Under the pieces are notes generated by a model that saw only the letters and a list, made by a program, of their open reading frames with translations, was not told the DNA's origin and ran no database searches. The position numbers and the translations under genes were made by a program. Positions 14,208 to 40,128 of a stretch of DNA of 44,606 nt are shown piece by piece (positions within the stretch are counted from its first letter, which is position 1; each line of letters starts with the position of its first letter). This DNA comes from Priapulus caudatus (lineage: Eukaryota): assembly GCF_000485595.1 (NCBI RefSeq), contig NW_014577061.1, positions 1,731,214 to 1,775,819 of the forward strand, written 5' to 3'.

Positions 14208-16720
14208 GCATGCGATCTAGTCGTGGTTTACGGCTGACGCACGCGCGTGTACATGTAGTGCTGAGCACCAGGTGTGCTAGAGTACATGTGCGTGATTCAG
14301 CGGCTCGGGCGTGAGGTAGCGCTAGTGTACAGCATTGGTGCGACGTAGTGATCGCCATCCATCGATTGCGCCTGTCGCCTCTGCGCCAGTTTTGAGCGAA
14401 CAGAAATGGCCACCGGAGACGTGTGTGTGTGTGTACCCTCTATAAAATTTAATACTGGCCGGATCAATCCACGCTGACCTAAATAGTGTGCAGCTAGTTA
14501 TTGCCTGCCGCCGCTTTTTCCGTGTAAATGACATTAAATTTAATGGTAGGCAATCAATGAGAGCAGCACGACGACACGGAGCCGAATTACAGCGGCCGCG
14601 ACATATTGCCTTGGTAACGGCGGCCATCGCTGGTTACGCGTGCCGAGTAAAGCACTGACCCATGGTCAGGCTTCGGCCAGTAACATGTGCAGTGATTACA
14701 TTATGATGGCTGTGATTGATGGCATAAACAAGGCGCCTGTTTGGAGAGACGCGCGCCGTACGCGCGCACGTAACCGTCGCTGTAGTCGTCTAGCGGAGTT
14801 CTTCGCCGCAACTTGGAAAGCAGCCGTGGATGGAGAAAACGCACAGCGTGTAGTGGCAATAAATAACGATGATTGCTTAGAGGACCAGCAACGGCTGACC
14901 ATACGGCCTTGTGAAAACTACGGCGATGGTGAACTTTGCTCGGTCAATGGTAGCTTTATTGGCCACGCGTGCGCTTGTACTATAACATACAAACGCAAAC
15001 AGCGTCTATTTTTCCCGATTCCGGCGATGGGCCATCGAACGATTCGTGTGGATGCTATAAATTCGTTGAAAATGCGATGGCGTATTTTGTTACATTTCTT
15101 CTCGAGGAAGTCCTGGAAAACTGGTCATCTTCTGAGCAGAGAGACGTTCCCCAATGCATTTTCAGTGAAAAGGCATGATGATTGTGATGTGAAGCAAGTA
15201 AAGCCGTAAATGTTCTTGCTTCATAGGTAATATTAGCATGCGTGGGAGAAACAGCGAGGCAGGGCTGTGCATGAGACCTGGTCATGTGTTTGTGCCCTGG
15301 CCCTTGGCCTCAACAAATATTTGTGCGCATTTTTGCAAGCGCGCCTTATCTCTCTCGCATGTTGACACAAGCAAGCGTTGTTGCGAGTATCTCAGTGCCA
15401 GGTCGTCCGCCGCTATCTGCGAGGCCATTACCTTTATGCCTTGGGAGCAATCGGTTTTTTTAATGACACCGTCCTGAATTGTCAACGATGCGCGCGCGCG
15501 GCCAGCCTCTCTGTTGTCGTGTGCGCCCGCAGCCGGTGTCGCTGACCCAACAGTTGTCTGTCAAGGACATATGCCTTGCTGGCGAAAGTAGCAGCTACGG
15601 GGTGCTTACGGGGAGGCTGGTGCGATCGATTAGCCTTATCAAAGCTTATTGATTTACAGAATAAATCTACATACATCTGACTGCATACGCTCGAAGCTGA
15701 CTGACGGCCAAGCGCTTCTCCCCATCTGCTCGTATTAGATTGTCTTGGCCTTCCAGCAGTCACACTTGCGCATGCCGTATTAGAACTGAAATGCGTATAT
15801 ATATATAATATATGACGTGGACTGACGTGGTGTGATCAAGTGTAACTAGGCATGAGGTTTTTTTTTATAACGACGACGATCGAATTTGTGCAGTTTTCTG
15901 TTTTCTCTCTCAGATAAGCACGCTGTTTTTCATTATGTGTAAGCTGGGCTGACTACTGTCCGGGTTTTCAGTGGTGAATACTGCTAGTGGCGTGCGCTGC
16001 CTCTGGCAGAGGATTCGATGGGTGTGACTGAAGCCATTTTTCATGGATTGTATGGTTGCAAAAATAAATCAGTAGCTAAACGTATTTTGTTTACAATTAG
16101 GCATTTTACCAACCTCCCCGACATTCCTCAAGAAATGTGGCACCCATAAATATTTACCTGCAGATGTTGGTTAGTTTGATTTTGTGCAAATAAACTCGTC
16201 GAGAGTACGCACTTGTTTAAAGCAGTTGCTATTTTGCGATGCAGTGCAGTGCCGCATACAGGAAAGACCGTGCTTCCAGCACTGACCACGCACGTACACG
16301 TGTACGTCTGTCATCAGTGCTAGTGGTCAGTCTGTCCAGCTATCTCTTGCCTCGCTATCTATAGAGATGTAAGTGCATGTCACCGGAAAAAGCTGCCACC
16401 GGGCAAATAAGCCGCAGTGGTCATCCCACTGCGATGTTTGTCTAGCTCGCTGTAATAGCTGAGACCACTCCTTCACTATTTACGCGCGCCTGCCACATGA
16501 ATGTGTACGTCTGCTTCAGTGAGTCAGTCACCACACGGCCCTTCACCGGCCATGACAGGCAGGAAATGAGACGGCTAAAGCCCAAAGCTTTTTAACGGTG
16601 CCATGTTTCTCGCTGGTGTTACTACACAGACGAGGTATACGAAGCATGCGGCTGTACAAAGCTCGTGTTTGGCACGTGTATCGTAAGAGTTTCTAGCTCA
16701 GTTATATATAGGCATTTCTA

Positions 16721-16744
16721 ATTTCCATTTTCCTTCGCTTACAG
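16721..16744 (+). promoter_or_regulatory. 3' splice acceptor of the hunchback coding exon
   Basis: Branch-like ttctaat, polypyrimidine tract atttccattttccttcgctt and acag| ending at 16744, 45 nt upstream of the ATG. Confidence 0.75.
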
Positions 16745-16789
16745 GTGCACAATTTGATGAAGGTAACTGCATAGCAACGACAGAACACG

Positions 16790-19700
16790 ATGGACAACAG
16801 TGAAGTTCGCAATGGCCTAGAACGACCGCTCGACCCGTCCTACACGAACGGTATGAGCATGAGCAGCTTGTACGGCGTCGCCGGGTACAACAGCGGCGCC
16901 CCCTACAACGGCAGCAGCGGCGCGTACATGAACAAGGCGGTCGAGGGCCAGCCGCCTGGCCGCATGGAGCCGCCGGTCAGCAACATGAGCTACGCGGTGA
17001 TGGACTACAACCGCCACTACCTGCCGCGCACCGCCGAGCACTCCGACTTCAACTCCTTCCGCAACTACATCATGAGCCGCATCGAGCAGCCGGACTTCTC
17101 GCCGGAGCGCGGCGGCGGCAAGCGCGCCGACAGCAACGGCGACAAGCAGCTTGCCTCGCCGCCCTTCAGCTCCGCGTACGGCTACGCCGGTGCCAAGGAC
17201 TCCACCGGCAGCGGCGGCGGGTACCGAGGCGTCCCTCCGGGTCTCGCCGACCAGCTGCCCGGCTACGGCCACGGACCGAAGGCGACCGATTACGTCGGCA
17301 ATGGTCACGTCGTCGGTGGGCCGCCGCACGGCTACCTGACCGAGTACGGCGGTCTGTACGCGATGCCCCCTGGTGAGCACGGCGGTGGCGGGCGGGCGGC
17401 AGGAGGCGCGGGGAAGCCCGGCCGCTACGGCCCGCCGATAGCGTACCAGCTGGATGTGACGAAGGGGTTGCCGCCGCTGCTGTCGCCGCAGCAGCGGACG
17501 CCGCCGCCACCGCCGCAAACCGCGCGCAATCCAGCGTTGCTGGCCTGCTTTGCCAGCGGCTCCGACTTGCAGGCGAGCCTCAACTGCAGCAGTGGGGGCA
17601 ACAGCAGCAGCAGCAGCAGCACGAGCAGCGTGTCGCCGAGCATGTCGCTGCCGCCACAGCCCTCCCCCGTGCCCCCGTACCACACCCCGCAGCCGCCCTC
17701 CCCCGCCGGCACCCTTTCCGAGACGACACCACACAAGCAGCGTCCCGACGCGGAGGAGGAGCCCGGCGACGCGAAGGAGAAGGGCGCAGTCTCCGACGAG
17801 AAGGCTGCGGTGAAGGAGGACCCCGGCGACGACGAGGAGGAAGCGATGGATACGGGCGACGCTCTTCCTGACGACATCTCGGCGCACAGCCCCGTCGCGG
17901 GGGAGGCCGCCGACAACCAGTCGGACACGGAGATCGAGGGCAGCATGAAGGAAGATGATGGCGGGAAGGAGGACAACGAGGACATCGCCGACCCGAAGCC
18001 GGAGAAGCCCGACGGCGTGGAGGAGGAGACGGAGGAGGAGGAGAAGGAGGCGGCGGCGGCGACGACGACGAAGGAGGAGGGTGCCGCCGTGGAGGAGAGT
18101 CTGGACCCGGAGAAGCAGTTTGCTCTGGCCTTCGAGCAGGCGAAGGCGGCGAGCATGCGCGCGCAGGCGGAGCTGACGAAGCGCAACCTGGAGCAGGCGG
18201 CGGCCGAGTTTGACGCGCACGAGGAGTTCATGCCGAGCATGGTCGAGGAGCGGCCCGACGCCGTCTACCGCTGCACGCTCTGCAGCTACTCGGGCACATC
18301 GCGCTTCCACTTCAACTCGCACATGAACACGCACTTCGACCACAAGTGCTCGCTGTGCGAGTACACGGCGCGCACGGAGGCGCGCCTCAAGAAGCACATT
18401 CGCGAGCTGCACGGCGACGCGTCGGCGGCGGGCGATGGCGGCAGCGGCGGCGCGCAGGCGCTGCGCGTGGCGCGCGTGAGCCAGATGCCGCCGAAGCAGA
18501 AGGTGTACCGCTGCAAGCAGTGCGAGTTTACGGCGACGAACAAGAACGAGTTCTGGGATCACTCGCGGCTCCACATCAAAGTCGACAAGATGCTGTCGTG
18601 CCCCAAGTGCAACTTCGTCACCGAGTACAAGCACCACCTCGAGTACCACCTGCGCAACCACTTCGGCTCGAAGCCGTTCAAGTGCAGCAAGTGCAACTAC
18701 TCGTGCGTGAACAAGTCGATGCTGAACAGCCACATGAAGTCGCACTCGAACTTCTACCAGTACCGCTGCCAGGACTGCACGTACGCGACCAAGTACTGCC
18801 ACAGCCTGAAGCTGCACCTTCGTAAGTACGGCCACAAGCCGGCGACCGTGCTCAGCGGCGGCGACATGTTCGTGCTGCAGCATCCCGAGCTGCTGCTCGG
18901 CCGGCGTGGCGCGCGCGGACCCAAGAAGAAGATGTTCGGCCTGCCCGAGTTGCCGCCGGCGATGATGAACGGCGGCATGCGGCACCCACCGTTTGGCTTC
19001 CCGATTCCGCCGGGCTTCAACGGCCTGCCGCCGTCAATGATGGGCAGCCTGCTGATGCAGCAGCAGCACAAGCCGTCGGCGGCGGCGCTGCGGGCCGGCG
19101 CGGTGGACGCGTCGCGCGGCGCCGGCGGCGAGCCGTGCCTCAGCTGCAACCTGTGCGACTTCCGCTCGAAGTACGCCGACCAGCTGAGCCGGCACATGAT
19201 GCTGCACGCCGCCGCCGACAACCAGGACCTCTGCAAGCTCTACGGCATCTCGACGGAGACGCTGATGGCCGACGGCCGCCAGGTGTCGCCGGCCGTGCTG
19301 CGCGAGGGCCAGCTGTCGCCGGGCGAGGTGCGCCGCTGGGCGCAGGAGGCCGAGCGCAGTCAGCCGAGGAGCAAGACGCCGCCGAAGCTTTGTTCGGCGG
19401 CCGCTGTCGCCGCGGCGCTCTACAAGAACGTTGAGGGCGTCGACAAGGCGAAGGTGCTCGACCTGAGCCGCAACCACGACGTCAGTGCGATGAAGGACGC
19501 ACTCGACCAGATCGGCGCCGTCAAGATCAAGCAGGAGCCGGACGCCGGCGGCCGGGACGCCCCGCCGCCGCCGCCGCCAGAATCGAGTCTTCCGGAGCCA
19601 GTGGCGGCGCCCTCCTCTGCCGCGTCGCCGTCGCGAAGCCGCCGCAAGGGCAAGGCCTACAAGCTTGACCGCATCTGCATGAAGCTGCAGAAGCAGTTCT

Positions 19701-20278
19701 CACCTGGCGGCGGCGGCAGCGGCGGCGGCGCCGAGTCGAACGACGGCTACAGCTCGGACTCGTGCGGCGCCCCCGCGGCCGGCGTCACCTATGCACTCGA
19801 TTGCGACGCAGCGGCGGCAGCGGCCGACGACAAGGTCGATCGAGAGCCGAGCGAGCATGTGCACAGGGTCGCCGACGCTGACTGCGTCGCAAAGCCTCCG
19901 CCGCCACCGCCGCTCGGCCGCGCGAGCATCAGCGCGAGTCCGGAGTACGAGGAGCAGTGCCATCGCGGCTTTGCCGAGCAGCAGGCGCTCTACCACAGCC
20001 ACCAGCTGTTCGGCGGCGGCGCGGCAAGGCGGCCGGAGCTGGGCAAGGCGTCGATTGGCGCGCTCGTGCTGCGGCAGATGGGCGGCGCCCGGCTCGCCGA
20101 CGCGTGCGAGGCATACGAGTGCAACTATTGTGAAATCTCCTTCAAGAACTGCGTGATGTACACGATGCACATGGGCTACCACGGCTACCGCGACCCGTTC
20201 AAGTGCAACATGTGCGGCCACCAGGCCGAAGACAAGATCTCATTCTTCTTGCACATCGCCAGGGTGGCGCACATGTAG
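16790..20278 (+). CDS. hb: Hunchback (hb/hbl-1) C2H2 zinc-finger transcription factor, 1162 aa, single coding exon
   Basis: Diagnostic middle fingers [65 protein letters not shown]. Two N-terminal fingers, one extra finger ([21 protein letters not shown]), basic box [10 protein letters not shown], and two C-terminal Ikaros/Hb-type fingers ([30 protein letters not shown]...[10 protein letters not shown]). Strong GC3 bias; in-frame stop upstream of the ATG. Confidence 0.97.
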
Positions 20279-23200
20279 AGCACCGCCCCCGCGTGCCGCG
20301 CGGCGTGCCCCGGTCACGTCCACGTACCGCGTAGTGCGTGTCCCCGTACTCGATGCCGCATCCTACCTTTGACTCATGCCAATCCATCAACTACCGGACC
20401 TCTACTGTTGCAATAACTGTCCGATCGACAGGACGTGGCTGGCTTGCTCGCTGGCAGACACATTCGGTGTGCTATCATGCATAGGTCTCGTGCAAGGTAT
20501 TCAGGTTTAAAAACTTCTGAGGAAAATTCATAATCCGTAATGCGGTCTCGGTTGGAGATGGTACACGGACAGTTCTTTCCATAGACGAATTAAGAGATAG
20601 TAACCAGTATAACTACATGCCTTAGACGGAAAAATGAATGTAGTATTTAGTGTGTCCTTCCCCATGGCCTTTTGTAGCTAGCTAAATTCCATAAGTATTA
20701 TGGGTAGTAAGTGAAAATGTTACTATCATGCATGTACCAAAGATATAACACTCTGGGAAGATGGCTTTCTAGGACGTGAAGATGTCAGCATGTTCTTGCC
20801 GTAACAAGAGGCAACCCTGAAGGTGGTGCCACGATGATTCTTCTGAGGTGGCAAATGCTTGGCGTTAGTCTGGAGAAATACGAGGCGCGCACAATCTATC
20901 TATACGTGTATTCTTGAATGTTGACTGTACTTATGGTCGGTTATTTATTAATGGTAACTATTGAGGCTTATGCTGGGATGCGTTCTCAGTAGAGTTATTC
21001 CTGTATCAGTAGATACTCGTCGTTTTCCGTAATACGCTGTGGATCCTTATATATGCGTATTGTGAACGTTGAATTCAGGAAAGAGTAACATGCAATACTG
21101 GCTAAATCTAAACTCGCCAAAGAACTTCTGCCACTATTTATAGTGATAGGAGATAAATATGTTATGGTATAACGCAATGGCAGGACGTATTCTGTGAAAC
21201 AGATGCCTAGCTGGTGGTTTGCTGTGAATAGAGGGTCCCATAATCCAAACCCGTTTGGCCAGCGTTGCATGCAAGTAGTCTTCCTGTGGCCTGTGTTCCT
21301 GATGACATTTATATGTTCACTGTTCGATGTTTGTAAGGTTCGGAGGTTTTCTTTTTTTTTCTTTGTAAATAATTTATATTTATGTCGAAACTGTATAAAT
21401 ATAGTCAGGGATGCAGTGATATTGACTCGTGGTGTCCAGAAGAGATATTGCTCAAACTTTGTTATTTCAAACTTTATCTGAACTCAGGGGTGTTTGGGAA
21501 GGTTTTCTCTGGATACTACGTGCTCAAGTGGGGGCGTCTGTCGTGTGTGTGTGGTCTCGCCACCGCTTGCCTAAGGCCTGCAGCTGCATTGCGAGACGAA
21601 CTTAGAGCTGGTCAGCGCTGTGTATTTTTTCTGTTGGGAGACGTCCGTGGTTGGCGCTTCGTCCAGGGGGCGCCTGCAGAGCTAGCGTGTGCCTCGGCGA
21701 CGCCGGGCAACCTCGCTCGTTGCAATGCGGTGTCGCGCGTGATCTCATGACGGTTGGCTGAGTGTGTACACTAAGGATCAACCCTCTTTTCAATTTGACA
21801 TCTTCCAGAATTCCAAAACTTTGTTTTTGTTGTGTTTTGTATGGTCAGGAGATCGCGACCTTTTTGAGGCTGGTCGCTGTATACGTTAATGTGTGGAATG
21901 AGTGTCGTGTAGTCGGGACTGCTATTGCACTCATTCATATCATTGTTTCACAGTGAGTTTTATGGACCAGCAAAGGAACGAAATGTTATGACTTTATCAT
22001 AGGTTTTTCATTATATTTGATTACTAGTTATCAGTGAGGAGTTGAATATTATTTTACTACTGTTGTATCTGTCGTTATGGAAGGTAATGCAGGGGCGAGG
22101 GAGATGTGTCCATGACATTGTGTTTGTGCTACATATTATACTCAGTGTCATAATACTATGCCTTAGGTCAGTCATCAGGGTTCAGAGTTTCTGCTGGCTA
22201 TTTTGTAATAATAGACTCAGTGGCACCGCCCTCGTGGCCGACGGAGCAGTTTATTTTCAGAAGTTTATATTTTTTCCAGGAGGGGAGCTTCTCGGCCACG
22301 AGGTGGCGCATGTGATGAGTCTGTACTGGTGTTGTTGATGATCAAAATAGTGGTGATACGCTGTCAAATCACAGTTTGAAGTTAATTTGCTCAAGACGTG
22401 GTGTCTGTGATTGCAGCCAGTGGTATAAGGAGATACACAGTACAGACATGTCAGCACTTGGGTACGTGCATGTATAAATACACACAAACACACACATAAA
22501 AAAAATATGTAGGTATGCATGTATATATATCATAGATTTTTATATATATATATATATATATATACGTATGTATGTACTCCTGTATGTGTATATGTGTTAC
22601 ACAGTGCAACTTGCACTTGTATTATATTGGCTGCAGCGAATAAGTAGCAGGTCTCCCTCTTGCTGTCCGCTTTACTGCAGATCCCAGGTTCAGAAAAATT
22701 ACTGTCTCTGTGGTTTCACTTTTGCGGGCCACTCATCCTACCGTTTGGACTGGCACATAAACAATGTGCATATAATCTAGTTATATTGTGATGTTTCCTC
22801 ACCTGCCCTGGGAGACACTGTAACAACCTCCGAATTGTTGAAAGATCACCTAGTGGTGGACATACCTCTACCGTAGGCGCCCACGAGACCACCTTACGTC
22901 GGTGCTGGTGCCCATAACGTTGTTACGGCGTGTTGCGGTAATCTTTCTAACAGAATTGGGAATTTTCGTCGCATTTGTTCTCGGTATCACAGGTATAGTT
23001 CCGTTAAATGCAATACGTAGCATCAGTGGGCAAACTTCACTTTTTTCACGTGCACCTGTAGGCGTTGACGTACAACCTACAGCGATTTCCTCTGGTTTCT
23101 GCGGGAGAGCCGTTTGCGAGCCGACAGACGTGTTACATTCACACTGCAGCCCTTACTAAAACTATACCGAATATTACCTCAGTAAGAAACACACTGTATG

Positions 23201-23360
23201 TCTACATTGTCTATATTTCCTTTGCATATTCTATCAATACGGGTTTAAATGTTTTATGAAATACTATATGTTTATATTGTGATTGCAAAAGCCGTCAGAT
23301 GGGAGACGTGCCTCTTCTAGAGCGTAAGGAGACCTTATCTCACGAAGTGCAGATACGAGC

Positions 23361-23361
<1 letters not shown>

Positions 23362-23407
<46 letters not shown>

Positions 23408-23642
23408 CTTCTCTCTTCTCTCTTCTCTCTTCTCTCTTCTCTCTCCCCCTGTCTATCTCTCTCTCTCTTTCTTTATCGATGTGTATGCGTGTCACCCCAG
23501 ATACTCTCTATCTCTCTTTAACTCTCTGCCTTTCCCTTCCCCCCTCTCTTTCTCTCTCTCTCTGTCTCTCTCACACAATTTCTCTCGGAGTACACGGAAG
23601 GGAAGCGTGCGTACTCTATGCGTCCGTGCGGGAGGAGAGAGG

Positions 23643-23704
<62 letters not shown>
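23362..23704. repeat. (CT)n tract followed by (GA)n tract
   Basis: Direct reading. Confidence 0.95.
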
Positions 23705-23707
<3 letters not shown>

Positions 23708-24609
23708 GGTTCGCGCAGTCGGCTTGTGTCGGCTCGGTCTCCCACTGGCGATCTTCGCAGCGTGTATCATAGCTTGTCATGTTATTATCGTCATAAACAG
23801 TATTGTAAACAGTTGCGTGGCAGGGATGGAGATAAAGCTCACGTAAAGCGCGGGAACGTATAGTTGTCGTATCTAAACACTACGTACATAACGTATTAGT
23901 AGCCGTAGCTTGCATATAATCCTAGCATCGTGTATACTGAAGATAGAGAGTAGCGTCGTAGATATGTTTATAGTTTGCTACATGTGTCATGCCAACCAAC
24001 CAGCTATATGAGCCGCAATCAAAGTGATTCAAATCAAAATGATGAGGACGTCGGCAGTGATACTGTCCGATTAATTGATTGCTGATGTATCAGGATCCAT
24101 GATTAATTTATTTTCATTTTGCTTGCTAATTTGTTTAGCCTATTTATTTTACCAAATCAGGAGTTAAGAATTGTGACTGTGTTACTGTGATGAATCAGTG
24201 AAGGAGAGAGAGATAAATATAGCAGGAATTGCTGTCAGTTTCTCTGTAGTAAATTTGATTTTTGGGTGATACCATTTGACCTCTGTGTTCCTTAAAAGTA
24301 ATATTTTATTAATGGAAGTAGGAAAACGACCTGGTTGGATATATTTACTCTAATCTTTCAGAACGTTTTGGAAAGCGAGATCACATAGTACGCAAGATTT
24401 CAAAATTTTACAACGACGCGTAGAGGTAATCACTTTTTTTTTAACTTTTTAATCAGCGAACTGACGAAACGTTAACCACCGAATACATCCAGCTGGAAAG
24501 GTCGTTGGTTTGCAGTCGCGATGTCATCTCATGCCTGCCTTTAAGTAGGGATGTCACATTGTACATGTCTTCGGGTAGAGCCACATGGCTCAAATAAGAC
24601 GCATAAAAC

Positions 24610-24735
24610 CATAGAAATAATATCAGGAGTTAATAATGACAAATTAGGACAGTCATTATTAACTCCTGATAATATAGATAGATCTATCTATATATAGAAA
24701 TATAGATATATATATAGATCTATATTATTTCTATG
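24610..24735. mobile_element. P-element-like MITE (CATAG...CTATG, 8-bp TSD) containing a nested 45-bp element
   Basis: TSD cataaaac at 24602-24609 and 24736-24743. TIR catagaaataatat(agat)/atctatattatttctatg. Inner element 24624-24668 has a perfect 17-bp TIR and a 7-bp TSD ataatat. Confidence 0.82.
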
Positions 24736-25196
24736 CATAAAACGAACCTATTCTATACGCCACACAGAGGGAGTGACGCCGCGCTGTTTATATTGAGAAC
24801 GCGTTAGTTCACATGACTGGAAATCATTTTGTCTTTAATAATAATGCATCCTGATGAGTAATCTTGCCTGGAGACTTCATGGACATCGTCATCGCGGCCT
24901 ATGTTTCCCAACATCGTGCCACGTGATCATCTAGTCATGCAAGACTGCAGTATTAAAATCTAAAATTACCAAAGAGGTAGGGAAAATTCGATATACGAAA
25001 TTTGTCGTTATACAGTATAGTTTAGCTGTCTTTAGGTAAATTGTTTGTGCCTGTTCCTCATCAGCTGTTTGTTATAGTGCAAGTCTTGCAAAGGGTCGTT
25101 GTGTACTAGTACAGTAGTTCCTGGCTTGTTCTGTACATCCAGCATTGCTCCATGCTCTACAGTACGTTGCCACTGTACAGCCGTGTTGTGATGTGG

Positions 25197-25202
25197 AATA
25201 AA
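25197..25202 (+). terminator. Candidate polyadenylation signal for hunchback
   Basis: AATAAA followed ~20-50 nt later by GT/T-rich sequence (tgtcgtcttcggtgtaatctgtttgtg). Confidence 0.5.
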
Positions 25203-26119
25203 ATAGCATTCAATCGATATCTGTCGTCTTCGGTGTAATCTGTTTGTGATGAAATGTCTCTGATTGGATTATGGAGTTCAATGTCTTCATCTCAGCTGCA
25301 ATCATTGATATTATACACACTGGCTATAGCAATGAGAATTTTTGGGAAATTCCGGGGAATTTCGCTTTTAACCGCTAGATACCTATTTTTAACCTATGTG
25401 ATGTGTAATTTACGATAATAATTACATTTTTTTTCACTAGAAAGTCGTATACCAGTATAATATTATTTCGCTATGAAGGTGTGATGGGGTAAATTTTCAA
25501 TATGACCGTTGACGTGTTGGGTGCATAATTTTGTATATGATACCATTCTGCCGGGCTTGCGTTTGTACGACGTAGACAACAGAATATGAGTACGATTTCT
25601 CAGCAGGTGTAGGTAGGGCCTACTCTGAGGGTTTGACCTCAGCTCTCTAATGCGATCAAAACATAATACGTATAACAATAACGTAAAATACCAGTGAGGC
25701 ATCCGCGTCAGTTCGTATAGCTTTTAATTAAAATATGTGATATTTCGCAAGAAGAACGAAATGATGACAATAATATTTGAAGCGAAATATAGTGGCAACT
25801 AACTACGTGACCAATCACGCATGTTCTGGTCTGGAATTTAGTAATAGTAAACATACACATGGGTATAATGATTTATGTTCTGAGTAGGTGGCGAACGGAC
25901 GAGTCTCCATATACGACCTAGCTAACCGTTTCTATTCGTGCTTAATTTGAATTTTAATATGCAGTTTGTGTGTATAGGTACTTCAATAGAGGCAGGTGGA
26001 GTGCATGGTACATATCTCTATAGAGATAAAGCCAAAAATTACTGAACATAAAGTGAAACAATAATAAATACAAATATTGTAACAATCATATTATATATAT
26101 ATATTTATTAATATATATA

Positions 26120-31839: not shown

Positions 31840-40128
<8,289 letters not shown>

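What the first reader, a model, noticed from the sequence alone, without database searches (positions are those of the whole stretch)
21405..23245. Sites for all three miRNAs of the let-7 cluster (miR-100, let-7, miR-125/lin-4) in one putative 3' UTR
Seen: miR-125/lin-4 seed matches TCAGGGA (21405-21411, 7mer-A1), CTCAGGG (21483-21489, 7mer-m8) and TCAGGG (22175-22180). miR-100 match TACGGGTT (23238-23245, complementary to nt 1-8) lies only ~57 nt from the let-7 site. Further let-7 partial matches are TACCTC (22863-22868) and TACAACCTAC (23071-23080, complementary to nt 8-17). Established: miR-100/let-7/miR-125 are co-transcribed as an ancient bilaterian cluster linked to developmental timing, and miR-100 has few known targets. 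Inference: a single polycistron may cooperatively switch off hunchback at a juvenile/metamorphic transition, i.e. an undescribed heterochronic module.
Basis: partly seen in the sequence, partly recalled or inferred. Interest (0 to 1): 0.85.

Follow-up and report, generated by a model that had tools for sequence, protein, structure and literature searches.

The report
let-7 cluster sites on hunchback mRNA
The long RNA tail of this invertebrate's hunchback gene carries one strong, likely real docking site for the microRNA let-7 and weaker predicted sites for its cluster partners miR-125 and miR-100; sites for the same three microRNAs recur behind hunchback genes of other invertebrates, which would make this developmental-timing link older than the nematode case where it was discovered.

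Summary
All six motifs are at the stated coordinates, downstream of a hunchback ORF (16790-20278) of an ecdysozoan placed outside arthropods and nematodes. RNA reads cover them to at least 23350. The trio exceeds chance (four 7-mers vs 0.7; all three present in about 1% of shuffles, 2.5% for a 4.9-kb UTR), but unevenly. The let-7 site at 23160-23181 is strong (17 of 22 pairs; 7 of 4000 shuffles). miR-125 is modest (P about 0.015-0.04). The miR-100 site alone is chance-level (P about 0.2, no 3' pairing). Other conserved seeds are enriched too (10 vs 3.6), so this UTR is a general microRNA hub, and seed spacing (56-71 nt) does not support cooperativity. [quoted passage not shown] The miR-100 signal comes wholly from four springtail-like loci, and none of the 26 has all three. 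Verdict: a variant of the known let-7/lin-4-to-hbl-1 regulation, with miR-100 as a new candidate input; no function tested. The scan earlier noted miR-100 and let-7 sites behind a springtail Kruppel.

The parts
16790..20278 (+). hunchback coding sequence, one open frame, 1162 aa, C2H2 zinc-finger protein
   Evidence: ORF; Pfam zf-C2H2; best named hits are hunchback proteins, 64-71% identical over the finger region; trees
20279..23350 (+). Transcribed region after the stop, read as the 3' UTR (minimum extent; reads continue past 23350)
   Evidence: runs X2-X4, depth in X2 from about 1 to about 15 toward 23350, 9 X2 reads run over the ends of the stretch while its first bin has no depth, no joints; libraries unstranded
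23160..23181 (+). Main let-7 site: g1-g10 paired (G:U at g8, A at t1), open centre at g11-g14, g15-g22 fully paired; duplex -21.0 kcal/mol
   Evidence: 17 of 22 pairs; 7 of 4000 shuffles; similar sites in L048, L023, L052
23070..23093 (+). Possible second, 3'-compensatory let-7 site: g2-g5 and g7-g9 paired, g6 mismatched, 6-nt offset, g10-g17 paired.
   Evidence: 2 of 600 shuffles, criterion set after seeing the site; longest-block P=0.024; second-best let-7 duplex, -19.8 kcal/mol
21405..21411 (+). miR-125/lin-4 7mer-A1 seed match, no 3' pairing
21483..21489 (+). miR-125/lin-4 7mer-m8 seed match, no 3' pairing, predicted poorly accessible (0.006 unpaired)
23238..23245 (+). miR-100 7mer-m8 seed match (U at t1), no 3' pairing, flanks 80% A+U (above the 95th percentile of the UTR)
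   Evidence: (P 0.21-0.25 alone)
22175..22180 (+). miR-125 6-mer, not distinguishable from background
   Evidence: 26% of controls pair as well
22863..22868 (+). let-7 6-mer, not distinguishable from background
   Evidence: 80% of controls pair as well
25197..25202 (+). First AATAAA after the stop, followed by GT-rich sequence; predicted poly(A) signal that would give a UTR of about 4.9 kb
   Evidence: sequence only, not checked with reads

Best explanation
The hunchback mRNA has a transcribed tail of at least 3 kb with one extended let-7 match and seed matches for miR-125 and miR-100, and it is likely repressed by let-7 and, less certainly and additively, by the other two, as one of several microRNA inputs. 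Shown: the gene, RNA over the sites, the pairing, and enrichment of each seed behind hunchback genes elsewhere. Inferred: Argonaute-bound let-7 binds 23160-23181 (seed plus distal 3' block) and perhaps 23070-23093, lowering translation or stability of hb mRNA when the cluster is expressed. From C. elegans hbl-1 and Drosophila chinmo, that would be late in development, so the early-fate factor Hunchback would be cleared from older cells. My estimates that a site is functional: let-7 0.8, at least one miR-125 site 0.6, miR-100 0.5, all three about 0.3. The link between hunchback and this cluster is probably old in protostomes, with lineages using different members.
For: let-7 site: 17 of 22 pairs, 7 of 4000 shuffles, unique in the window. 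RNA covers all sites. Trio P about 0.005-0.03; 0 of 122 overlapping 3.07-kb tiles from the rest of the window hold all three; no 7-mer for the three on the minus strand of 20279-23350. In 26 non-redundant hunchback downstream regions: 8-mers for let-7 in 4, miR-125 in 3, miR-100 in 4 loci, against 0.39, 0.31 and 0.24 expected (1, 1 and 0 of 400 shuffles). Word ranks 3, 17 and 1 of 16,384; ten other conserved seeds rank 308-14,345; minus-strand ranks 2769, 11791, 1776. Extended let-7 sites (at least 15 pairs in register) in 3 of 26 loci vs 0.07 (0 of 500); extended miR-100 sites in 3 of 26 vs 0.03 (0 of 500). The distal miR-100 site is a conserved island in four springtail-like UTRs that otherwise do not align. 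C. elegans hbl-1 has ten let-7 and one lin-4 site whose deletion causes retarded defects (10.1101/698977).
Against: The window's miR-100 site is chance-level alone and lacks the 3' pairing of the springtail-like sites. Without those four loci miR-100 has 0 8-mers in 22 (rank 14,486), and the four are one clade, so one evolutionary event. None of the 26 has 7-mers for all three; 2 have let-7 plus miR-125. In the first 1000 nt let-7 is not enriched (one 8-mer, 74 of 400 shuffles), and the distal sites in L052, L011, L027 and L012 follow AATAAA hexamers, so they may lie outside the UTR. The main let-7 site leaves g11-g14 unpaired, the part most needed in C. elegans (PMC9161110). By free energy alone the best let-7 duplex is borderline (P=0.053 of 300 shuffles) and the best miR-125 and miR-100 duplexes are unremarkable (P=0.60, 0.88). 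In C. elegans loss of the miR-100-family member mir-52 lowers hbl-1 expression, opposite to direct repression (PMC3353893). The Diabrotica and snail miR-125 variants add no 3' pairing. Reads are short and unstranded, so no single molecule links the ORF to the sites.
Confidence: 0.55

Rival explanations
1. Only the let-7 site or sites are functional; the miR-125 and miR-100 7-mers are background matches in a long UTR.
For: miR-100 alone P=0.21-0.25, no 3' pairing. miR-125 P=0.015-0.07 depending on UTR length and control; one 7-mer is predicted inaccessible. A stretch of the minus strand at about 35-39 kb of the window has one let-7 and three miR-125 7-mers, with no gene evidence examined there. 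No miR-100 enrichment outside one clade.
Against: Joint P 0.005-0.03. Thirteen conserved seeds give 14 7-mers vs about 4.2 expected in this UTR, so most such matches here are probably not background. miR-125 8-mers are enriched in 22 non-springtail loci (0 of 400 shuffles).
Confidence: 0.24
2. One reading: one polycistron delivers all three microRNAs, which would cooperate as a dedicated switch that turns hunchback off at a juvenile or metamorphic transition.
For: All three seeds are in one transcribed tail, seen in 0 of 26 other loci and about 1-3% of shuffles. The cluster is typically intact in protostomes (PMC3384580). let-7 and miR-100 sites lie within 90 nt in the best-covered part of the tail.
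Against: Seed spacing of 56 and 71 nt is outside the 15-35 bp range. Other families are equally enriched. In chinmo, let-7 and miR-125 act at different times rather than together. No stage or cluster data for this animal.
Confidence: 0.11
3. The main let-7 site would act as a trigger of target-directed microRNA degradation, so that hunchback mRNA lowers let-7 and the two form a double-negative switch.
For: The site meets all four pairing criteria in the methods of PMC10102002: g2-g8 paired with one G:U, last 8 nt paired, 4-nt central gap, -21.0 kcal/mol; 11 of 600 shuffles have such a site. L048 and L023 share the distal 3' block with an open centre.
Against: The 3' block is A+U-rich. That paper found candidates meeting only part of its screen inactive. 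hb mRNA is scarce in these runs (55-371 reads per about 1.1 Gb). The matching L048 and L023 sites do not pass the same filter.
Confidence: 0.06
4. Everything is chance, or the distal sites are not on the hunchback mRNA (separate or overlapping transcript).
For: Unstranded 51-nt reads, low depth, no spanning record, and no silent stretch laid as a DNA control.
Against: Continuous summed coverage from the stop, a 3'-ward rise as expected for a + strand poly(A) RNA, zero depth at 16400-16631, no AATAAA before 25197, and let-7 pairing at 7 of 4000.
Confidence: 0.04

Closest known systems
C. elegans hbl-1 3' UTR: let-7 family and lin-4 complementary sites (10.1101/698977, passages; PMC9161110, passages)
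   Same: Same gene family, same two seed families, sites in the 3' UTR, including an imperfect-seed plus 3'-pairing type.
   Different: hbl-1 has ten let-7 sites and one lin-4 site; here one strong and one possible let-7 site, two miR-125 7-mers and a miR-100 7-mer. In C. elegans the miR-100 relatives (mir-51 family) act upstream of hbl-1 in opposition to let-7 and no direct target was named (PMC3353893).
Drosophila let-7-Complex targets chinmo (PMC4979967, passages) and br-Z3 (PMC7144073, search listing only)
   Same: A zinc-finger timing factor co-targeted by co-transcribed let-7 and miR-125.
   Different: [quoted passage not shown] Here the target is hunchback, sites are few and untested, and a miR-100 match is present.
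C. elegans lin-41 LCS1/LCS2 3'-compensatory let-7 sites
   Same: 23070-23093 has an imperfect seed with pairing from g10 through g17 at a positive offset, the binding mode described in PMC8940178.
   Different: Offset is +6 rather than +1 (optimum +4 in vitro), the seed has a U-U mismatch, and the main site has the opposite layout (good seed, open g11-g14).
TDMD triggers in Drosophila mRNAs such as AGO1/miR-999 (PMC10102002, passages)
   Same: Seed, short central gap, paired 3' end.
   Different: No evidence of let-7 decay, and no hybrid-read data.

Membership tests
hbl-1-type let-7/lin-4 heterochronic target | Target is a hunchback ortholog | tested here: met
hbl-1-type let-7/lin-4 heterochronic target | Sites lie in the transcribed 3' UTR | tested here: met
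   RNA over all sites; strand and single-molecule continuity inferred, not shown
hbl-1-type let-7/lin-4 heterochronic target | A let-7 site beyond chance | tested here: met
   7 of 4000 shuffles
hbl-1-type let-7/lin-4 heterochronic target | Array of many let-7 sites (ten in hbl-1) | tested here: not met
   One 7-mer, one 6-mer and one possible compensatory site in 20279-25220. This lowers 'same architecture', not 'works like'
hbl-1-type let-7/lin-4 heterochronic target | lin-4/miR-125 site | tested here: inconclusive
   Two 7-mers, P 0.015-0.07, no 3' pairing
hbl-1-type let-7/lin-4 heterochronic target | Site-dependent temporal down-regulation of the protein | not testable with these tools
   Needs reporters or mutants; stages of runs X2-X4 are not given
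let-7-Complex co-target (chinmo type) | [quoted passage not shown] | not testable with these tools
   No genome held; no Rfam family reaches its gathering score in the window; usual in protostomes per PMC3384580
let-7-Complex co-target (chinmo type) | Sites conserved in close relatives | not testable with these tools
let-7-Complex co-target (chinmo type) | Seeds enriched behind distant orthologs | tested here: met
   each family separately; miR-100 in one clade only
let-7-Complex co-target (chinmo type) | Spacing for cooperative action (15-35 bp) | tested here: not met
   56 and 71 nt between seeds (range)
TDMD trigger | Four pairing criteria of PMC10102002 | tested here: met
TDMD trigger | ZSWIM8/Dora-dependent loss of the microRNA, relieved by deleting the site | not testable with these tools
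   Needs small-RNA data and perturbation

The most novel reading that the evidence does not exclude
hunchback was a direct target of the whole miR-100/let-7/miR-125 cluster in the protostome ancestor. Lineages kept different subsets: let-7 plus lin-4/miR-125 in nematodes and a bivalve-like locus, strong paired miR-100 sites in springtails, and all three in this slowly evolving ecdysozoan. That would make hunchback a deeply conserved miR-100 target and the nematode heterochronic link a remnant of an ancestral timer.
Probability: 0.3. Interest if true: 0.82.

Novelty: new variant of a known kind. Interest (0 to 1): 0.58.

Why it matters
let-7 control of hunchback is established in nematodes. Whether it is a nematode invention or an old animal timer is, to my knowledge, open, and direct invertebrate targets of miR-100 are few. 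This window gives one strong let-7 site in an ecdysozoan outside nematodes and arthropods. The comparison adds paired, extended miR-100 sites behind springtail-like hunchback genes, which can be tested directly in a culturable animal. My searches of the held library listed no paper whose title, abstract start or read passages report miR-100 sites in hunchback; most were seen as listings only and subscription journals are missing.

Tried and rejected
No genome is held, so the cluster could not be located. Rfam found nothing at gathering scores in the window and only sub-threshold, mostly microsatellite-driven hits in 20279-26000. No RNA holder was listed by the index; RNA runs came by species label. 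A second read lay downstream of 23700 gave no result, so the 3' end and a silent-stretch control are missing. Genome contigs gave no hunchback locus (12 pattern matches, 0 confirmed). A first tree did not finish; a first locus filter was too strict and was corrected. Rejected: the 6-mers at 22863 and 22175 as evidence; 3' supplementary pairing for miR-125, with three species' sequences, and for miR-100; cooperativity by spacing; direct homology of the window's miR-100 site with the springtail-like site, since only the seed and scattered columns agree. The 9 variant positions seen in reads miss the sites, but the sites are too short for that to count. PMC6772994 and PMC3562263 held nothing relevant in the passages seen. 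Earlier-findings look-ups by place and by protein returned nothing.

Full report
Gene and animal. One open frame at 16790-20278 (+) encodes a 1162-aa C2H2 zinc-finger protein. Its best named relatives are hunchback proteins at 64-71% identity over the finger region; an unnamed protein, P0003, is 85% identical there. In a maximum-likelihood tree of 39 rows (named proteins, the window's protein and P0003; 241 finger columns) the window and P0003 fall with ecdysozoans (100), outside the arthropod clade (95) and the nematode clade (99); their exact position is weak and differs between trees. A priapulid-type worm is my guess from that position; no call shows it. No genome is held and no Rfam family reaches its cut-off in the window, so this animal's own microRNAs were not seen. 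I used the sequences printed for Trichinella (PMC3212509, table passage). let-7 is the same over the 21 nt printed for Diabrotica and differs by one letter in a snail; miR-125 varies in its middle.

The observation. Four runs were laid on 16400-23350. The three raw RNA runs gave 371, 270 and 55 reads, unstranded, 51-52 nt. Summed, they cover every bin from the stop to 23350. Depth in X2 rises from about 1 to about 15 toward the right end, reads run past it, there are no joints, and the first bin (16400-16631) is empty. That fits a + strand poly(A) RNA with a 3' UTR of at least 3.07 kb, though no molecule links ORF and sites. The end was not mapped; the first AATAAA is at 25197, followed by GT-rich sequence.

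Chance within the window. In 20279-23350 there are four 7-mers for the three seeds against 0.65-0.71 in 5000 dinucleotide shuffles (P=0.0048). All three families have a 7-mer in 0.7-0.8% of shuffles, or 2.4-2.6% for a UTR to 25220. Composition-matched seeds on the real sequence give 1.1% and 3.0%, and 0 of 122 overlapping tiles elsewhere in the window have all three. The parts are unequal. miR-125 has two 7-mers (P=0.014-0.017; 0.04-0.07 with the longer UTR or the matched-seed control) and no 3' pairing with any of three species' sequences. miR-100 has one 7mer-m8 (P=0.21-0.25), no 3' pairing, in flanks that are 80% A+U. The two 6-mers are noise. The let-7 site at 23160-23181 pairs g1-g10 (G:U at g8) and g15-g22: 17 of 22 Watson-Crick pairs in register, reached by 7 of 4000 shuffles, while no other place on either strand of the window exceeds 14. 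By free energy alone it is borderline (P=0.053 of 300). PMC8940178 (passages) describes this positive-offset mode, with an optimum at +4.

A control that cuts both ways. Ten other conserved seeds give 10 7-mers in the same region against 3.6 expected (6 of 2000 shuffles); 5 of the 10 families have a site. miR-7 (2), miR-9 (2) and miR-92 (3) are as enriched as miR-125. The UTR looks like a general microRNA hub. That makes any one conserved seed here more likely to be real, and it removes the case for a dedicated trio within this UTR. Seeds lie 56 nt (let-7 to miR-100) and 71 nt (the two miR-125 7-mers) apart, outside the 15-35 bp range that PMC4979967 cites for enhanced repression (passages).

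Other hunchback genes. A scan of metagenome contigs gave 76 loci; 39 include the last finger pair, a stop and downstream DNA. I dropped 13 whose downstream regions align with a kept one (L007, L016, L018, L020-L022, L033, L034, L065, L067, L072, L073, L075), leaving 26 with 227-3500 nt each, 45,702 nt in all. None aligns to the window's UTR. 8-mer sites occur for let-7 in 4, miR-125 in 3 and miR-100 in 4 of 26 loci, against 0.39, 0.31 and 0.24 in 400 shuffles (reached 1, 1 and 0 times). Among all 16,384 words of seven letters plus A, these three rank 3, 17 and 1. The ten control seeds rank 308 to 14,345, and on the minus strand the three rank 2769, 11,791 and 1776. Extended let-7 sites (g2-g6 plus at least 15 pairs in register) occur in L023, L048 and L052 (0.07 expected, 0 of 500); L048 and L023 share the window's layout of a distal 3' block and open centre. 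Extended miR-100 sites occur in L012, L017 and L023 (0.03 expected, 0 of 500), down to -28.4 kcal/mol.

Limits of that comparison. All seven miR-100 8-mers lie in L012, L017, L023 and L043. Their proteins are closest to each other, to springtail (Orchesella) hunchback and to unnamed relatives of it, and share a motif with it; the finger-only tree put L012 apart from the other three. Their UTRs align only in short islands, one at the distal miR-100 site, which argues for selection, but they count as one lineage. In the other 22 loci miR-100 has no 8-mer and one 7-mer. let-7 is not enriched in the first 1000 nt (74 of 400), and several distal sites follow AATAAA hexamers; I did not check that these regions are transcribed. 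None of the 26 has 7-mers for all three families; L001 and L052 have let-7 plus miR-125.

How it most likely works. Shown: the gene, RNA over the sites, the pairing, the enrichments. Inferred: let-7 in Argonaute binds the main site and perhaps the compensatory one 67 nt upstream, miR-125 and miR-100 may add seed-only repression, and other families act in other cells or stages. By analogy with hbl-1 and chinmo this would clear an early-fate factor late in development. I put the sites at 0.8 (let-7), 0.6 (at least one miR-125) and 0.5 (miR-100). Against a simple picture, the main site leaves g11-g14 open, the part C. elegans needs most (PMC9161110, passages). That same layout meets the four pairing criteria for decay triggers in PMC10102002 (methods passage; 11 of 600 shuffles), which leaves a small chance that hb mRNA degrades let-7.

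What is known. hbl-1 has ten let-7 and one lin-4 site, and deleting them gives retarded defects (10.1101/698977, passages). chinmo is co-targeted by let-7 and miR-125 at different times. The C. elegans miR-100 relatives act upstream of hbl-1 against let-7, with no direct target named (PMC3353893, passages). The Pristionchus preprint lists its hbl-1 among predicted let-7 targets and does not name it for miR-100 in the passages seen (10.1101/2024.07.19.604269; supplements not seen). The cluster is usually intact in protostomes (PMC3384580, passages). The 2003 hbl-1 papers I saw only as reference titles. Searches for hunchback with miR-100 or the full trio listed 5, 7, 8, 2 and 4 papers; none reported such sites in what I saw, which was mostly listings.

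Verdict. Observation confirmed, interpretation partly supported. It works like the hbl-1 regulation but lacks its array of sites. The new elements are the taxon, a candidate miR-100 input, and evidence that hunchback is tied to all three cluster members across protostomes, though rarely in one UTR. New variant of a known kind; interest 0.58.

Noticed in passing
L017 (236, 478 nt after stop), L023 (224, 409), L043 (206, 227, 420), L012 (202, 519): Two or three miR-100 seed sites in each of four springtail-like hunchback UTRs, the distal one with 3' pairing around g12-g20 (down to -28.4 kcal/mol). This is a stronger miR-100 target case than the window's own site; the L017 site also passes the decay-trigger filter.
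   Followed up: yes
window 20409-23015: Seeds of other conserved microRNAs: miR-9 8-mer at 20736 and 7-mer at 21117; miR-92 at 20409, 21091, 23009; miR-7 at 21278, 21801; miR-124 at 20618, 22159; miR-8 at 20694.
   Followed up: partly
window 21364, 22520, 21829: Two Pumilio-type elements and one Nanos-response-element-like motif (labels recalled; counted, not tested against chance).
   Followed up: no
26 hunchback downstream regions: The word AGTTCCTA ranks 2 of 16,384 (5 loci vs 0.6) and TTTGTACA ranks 6. The first would match the miR-276 seed (recalled label).
   Followed up: no
window 23363-23704: CT and GA microsatellites in inverted orientation just after the let-7/miR-100 region; they could form a long RNA hairpin in the UTR.
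   Followed up: no
L001 (116, 162 nt after stop); L046 (about 85 and 289): Two loci that group with nematodes: L001 has a let-7 8-mer and a miR-125 7-mer 46 nt apart; L046 has a 3'-compensatory let-7 site and a lin-4/miR-125 8-mer.
   Followed up: partly
window about 35200-39300, minus strand: One let-7 and three miR-125 7-mers within 3 kb; could be chance or the UTR of a minus-strand gene.
   Followed up: no
window 16400-23350: Read counts differ about sevenfold among RNA runs X2-X4 of similar size (371, 270, 55); stages or tissues are not given.
   Followed up: no
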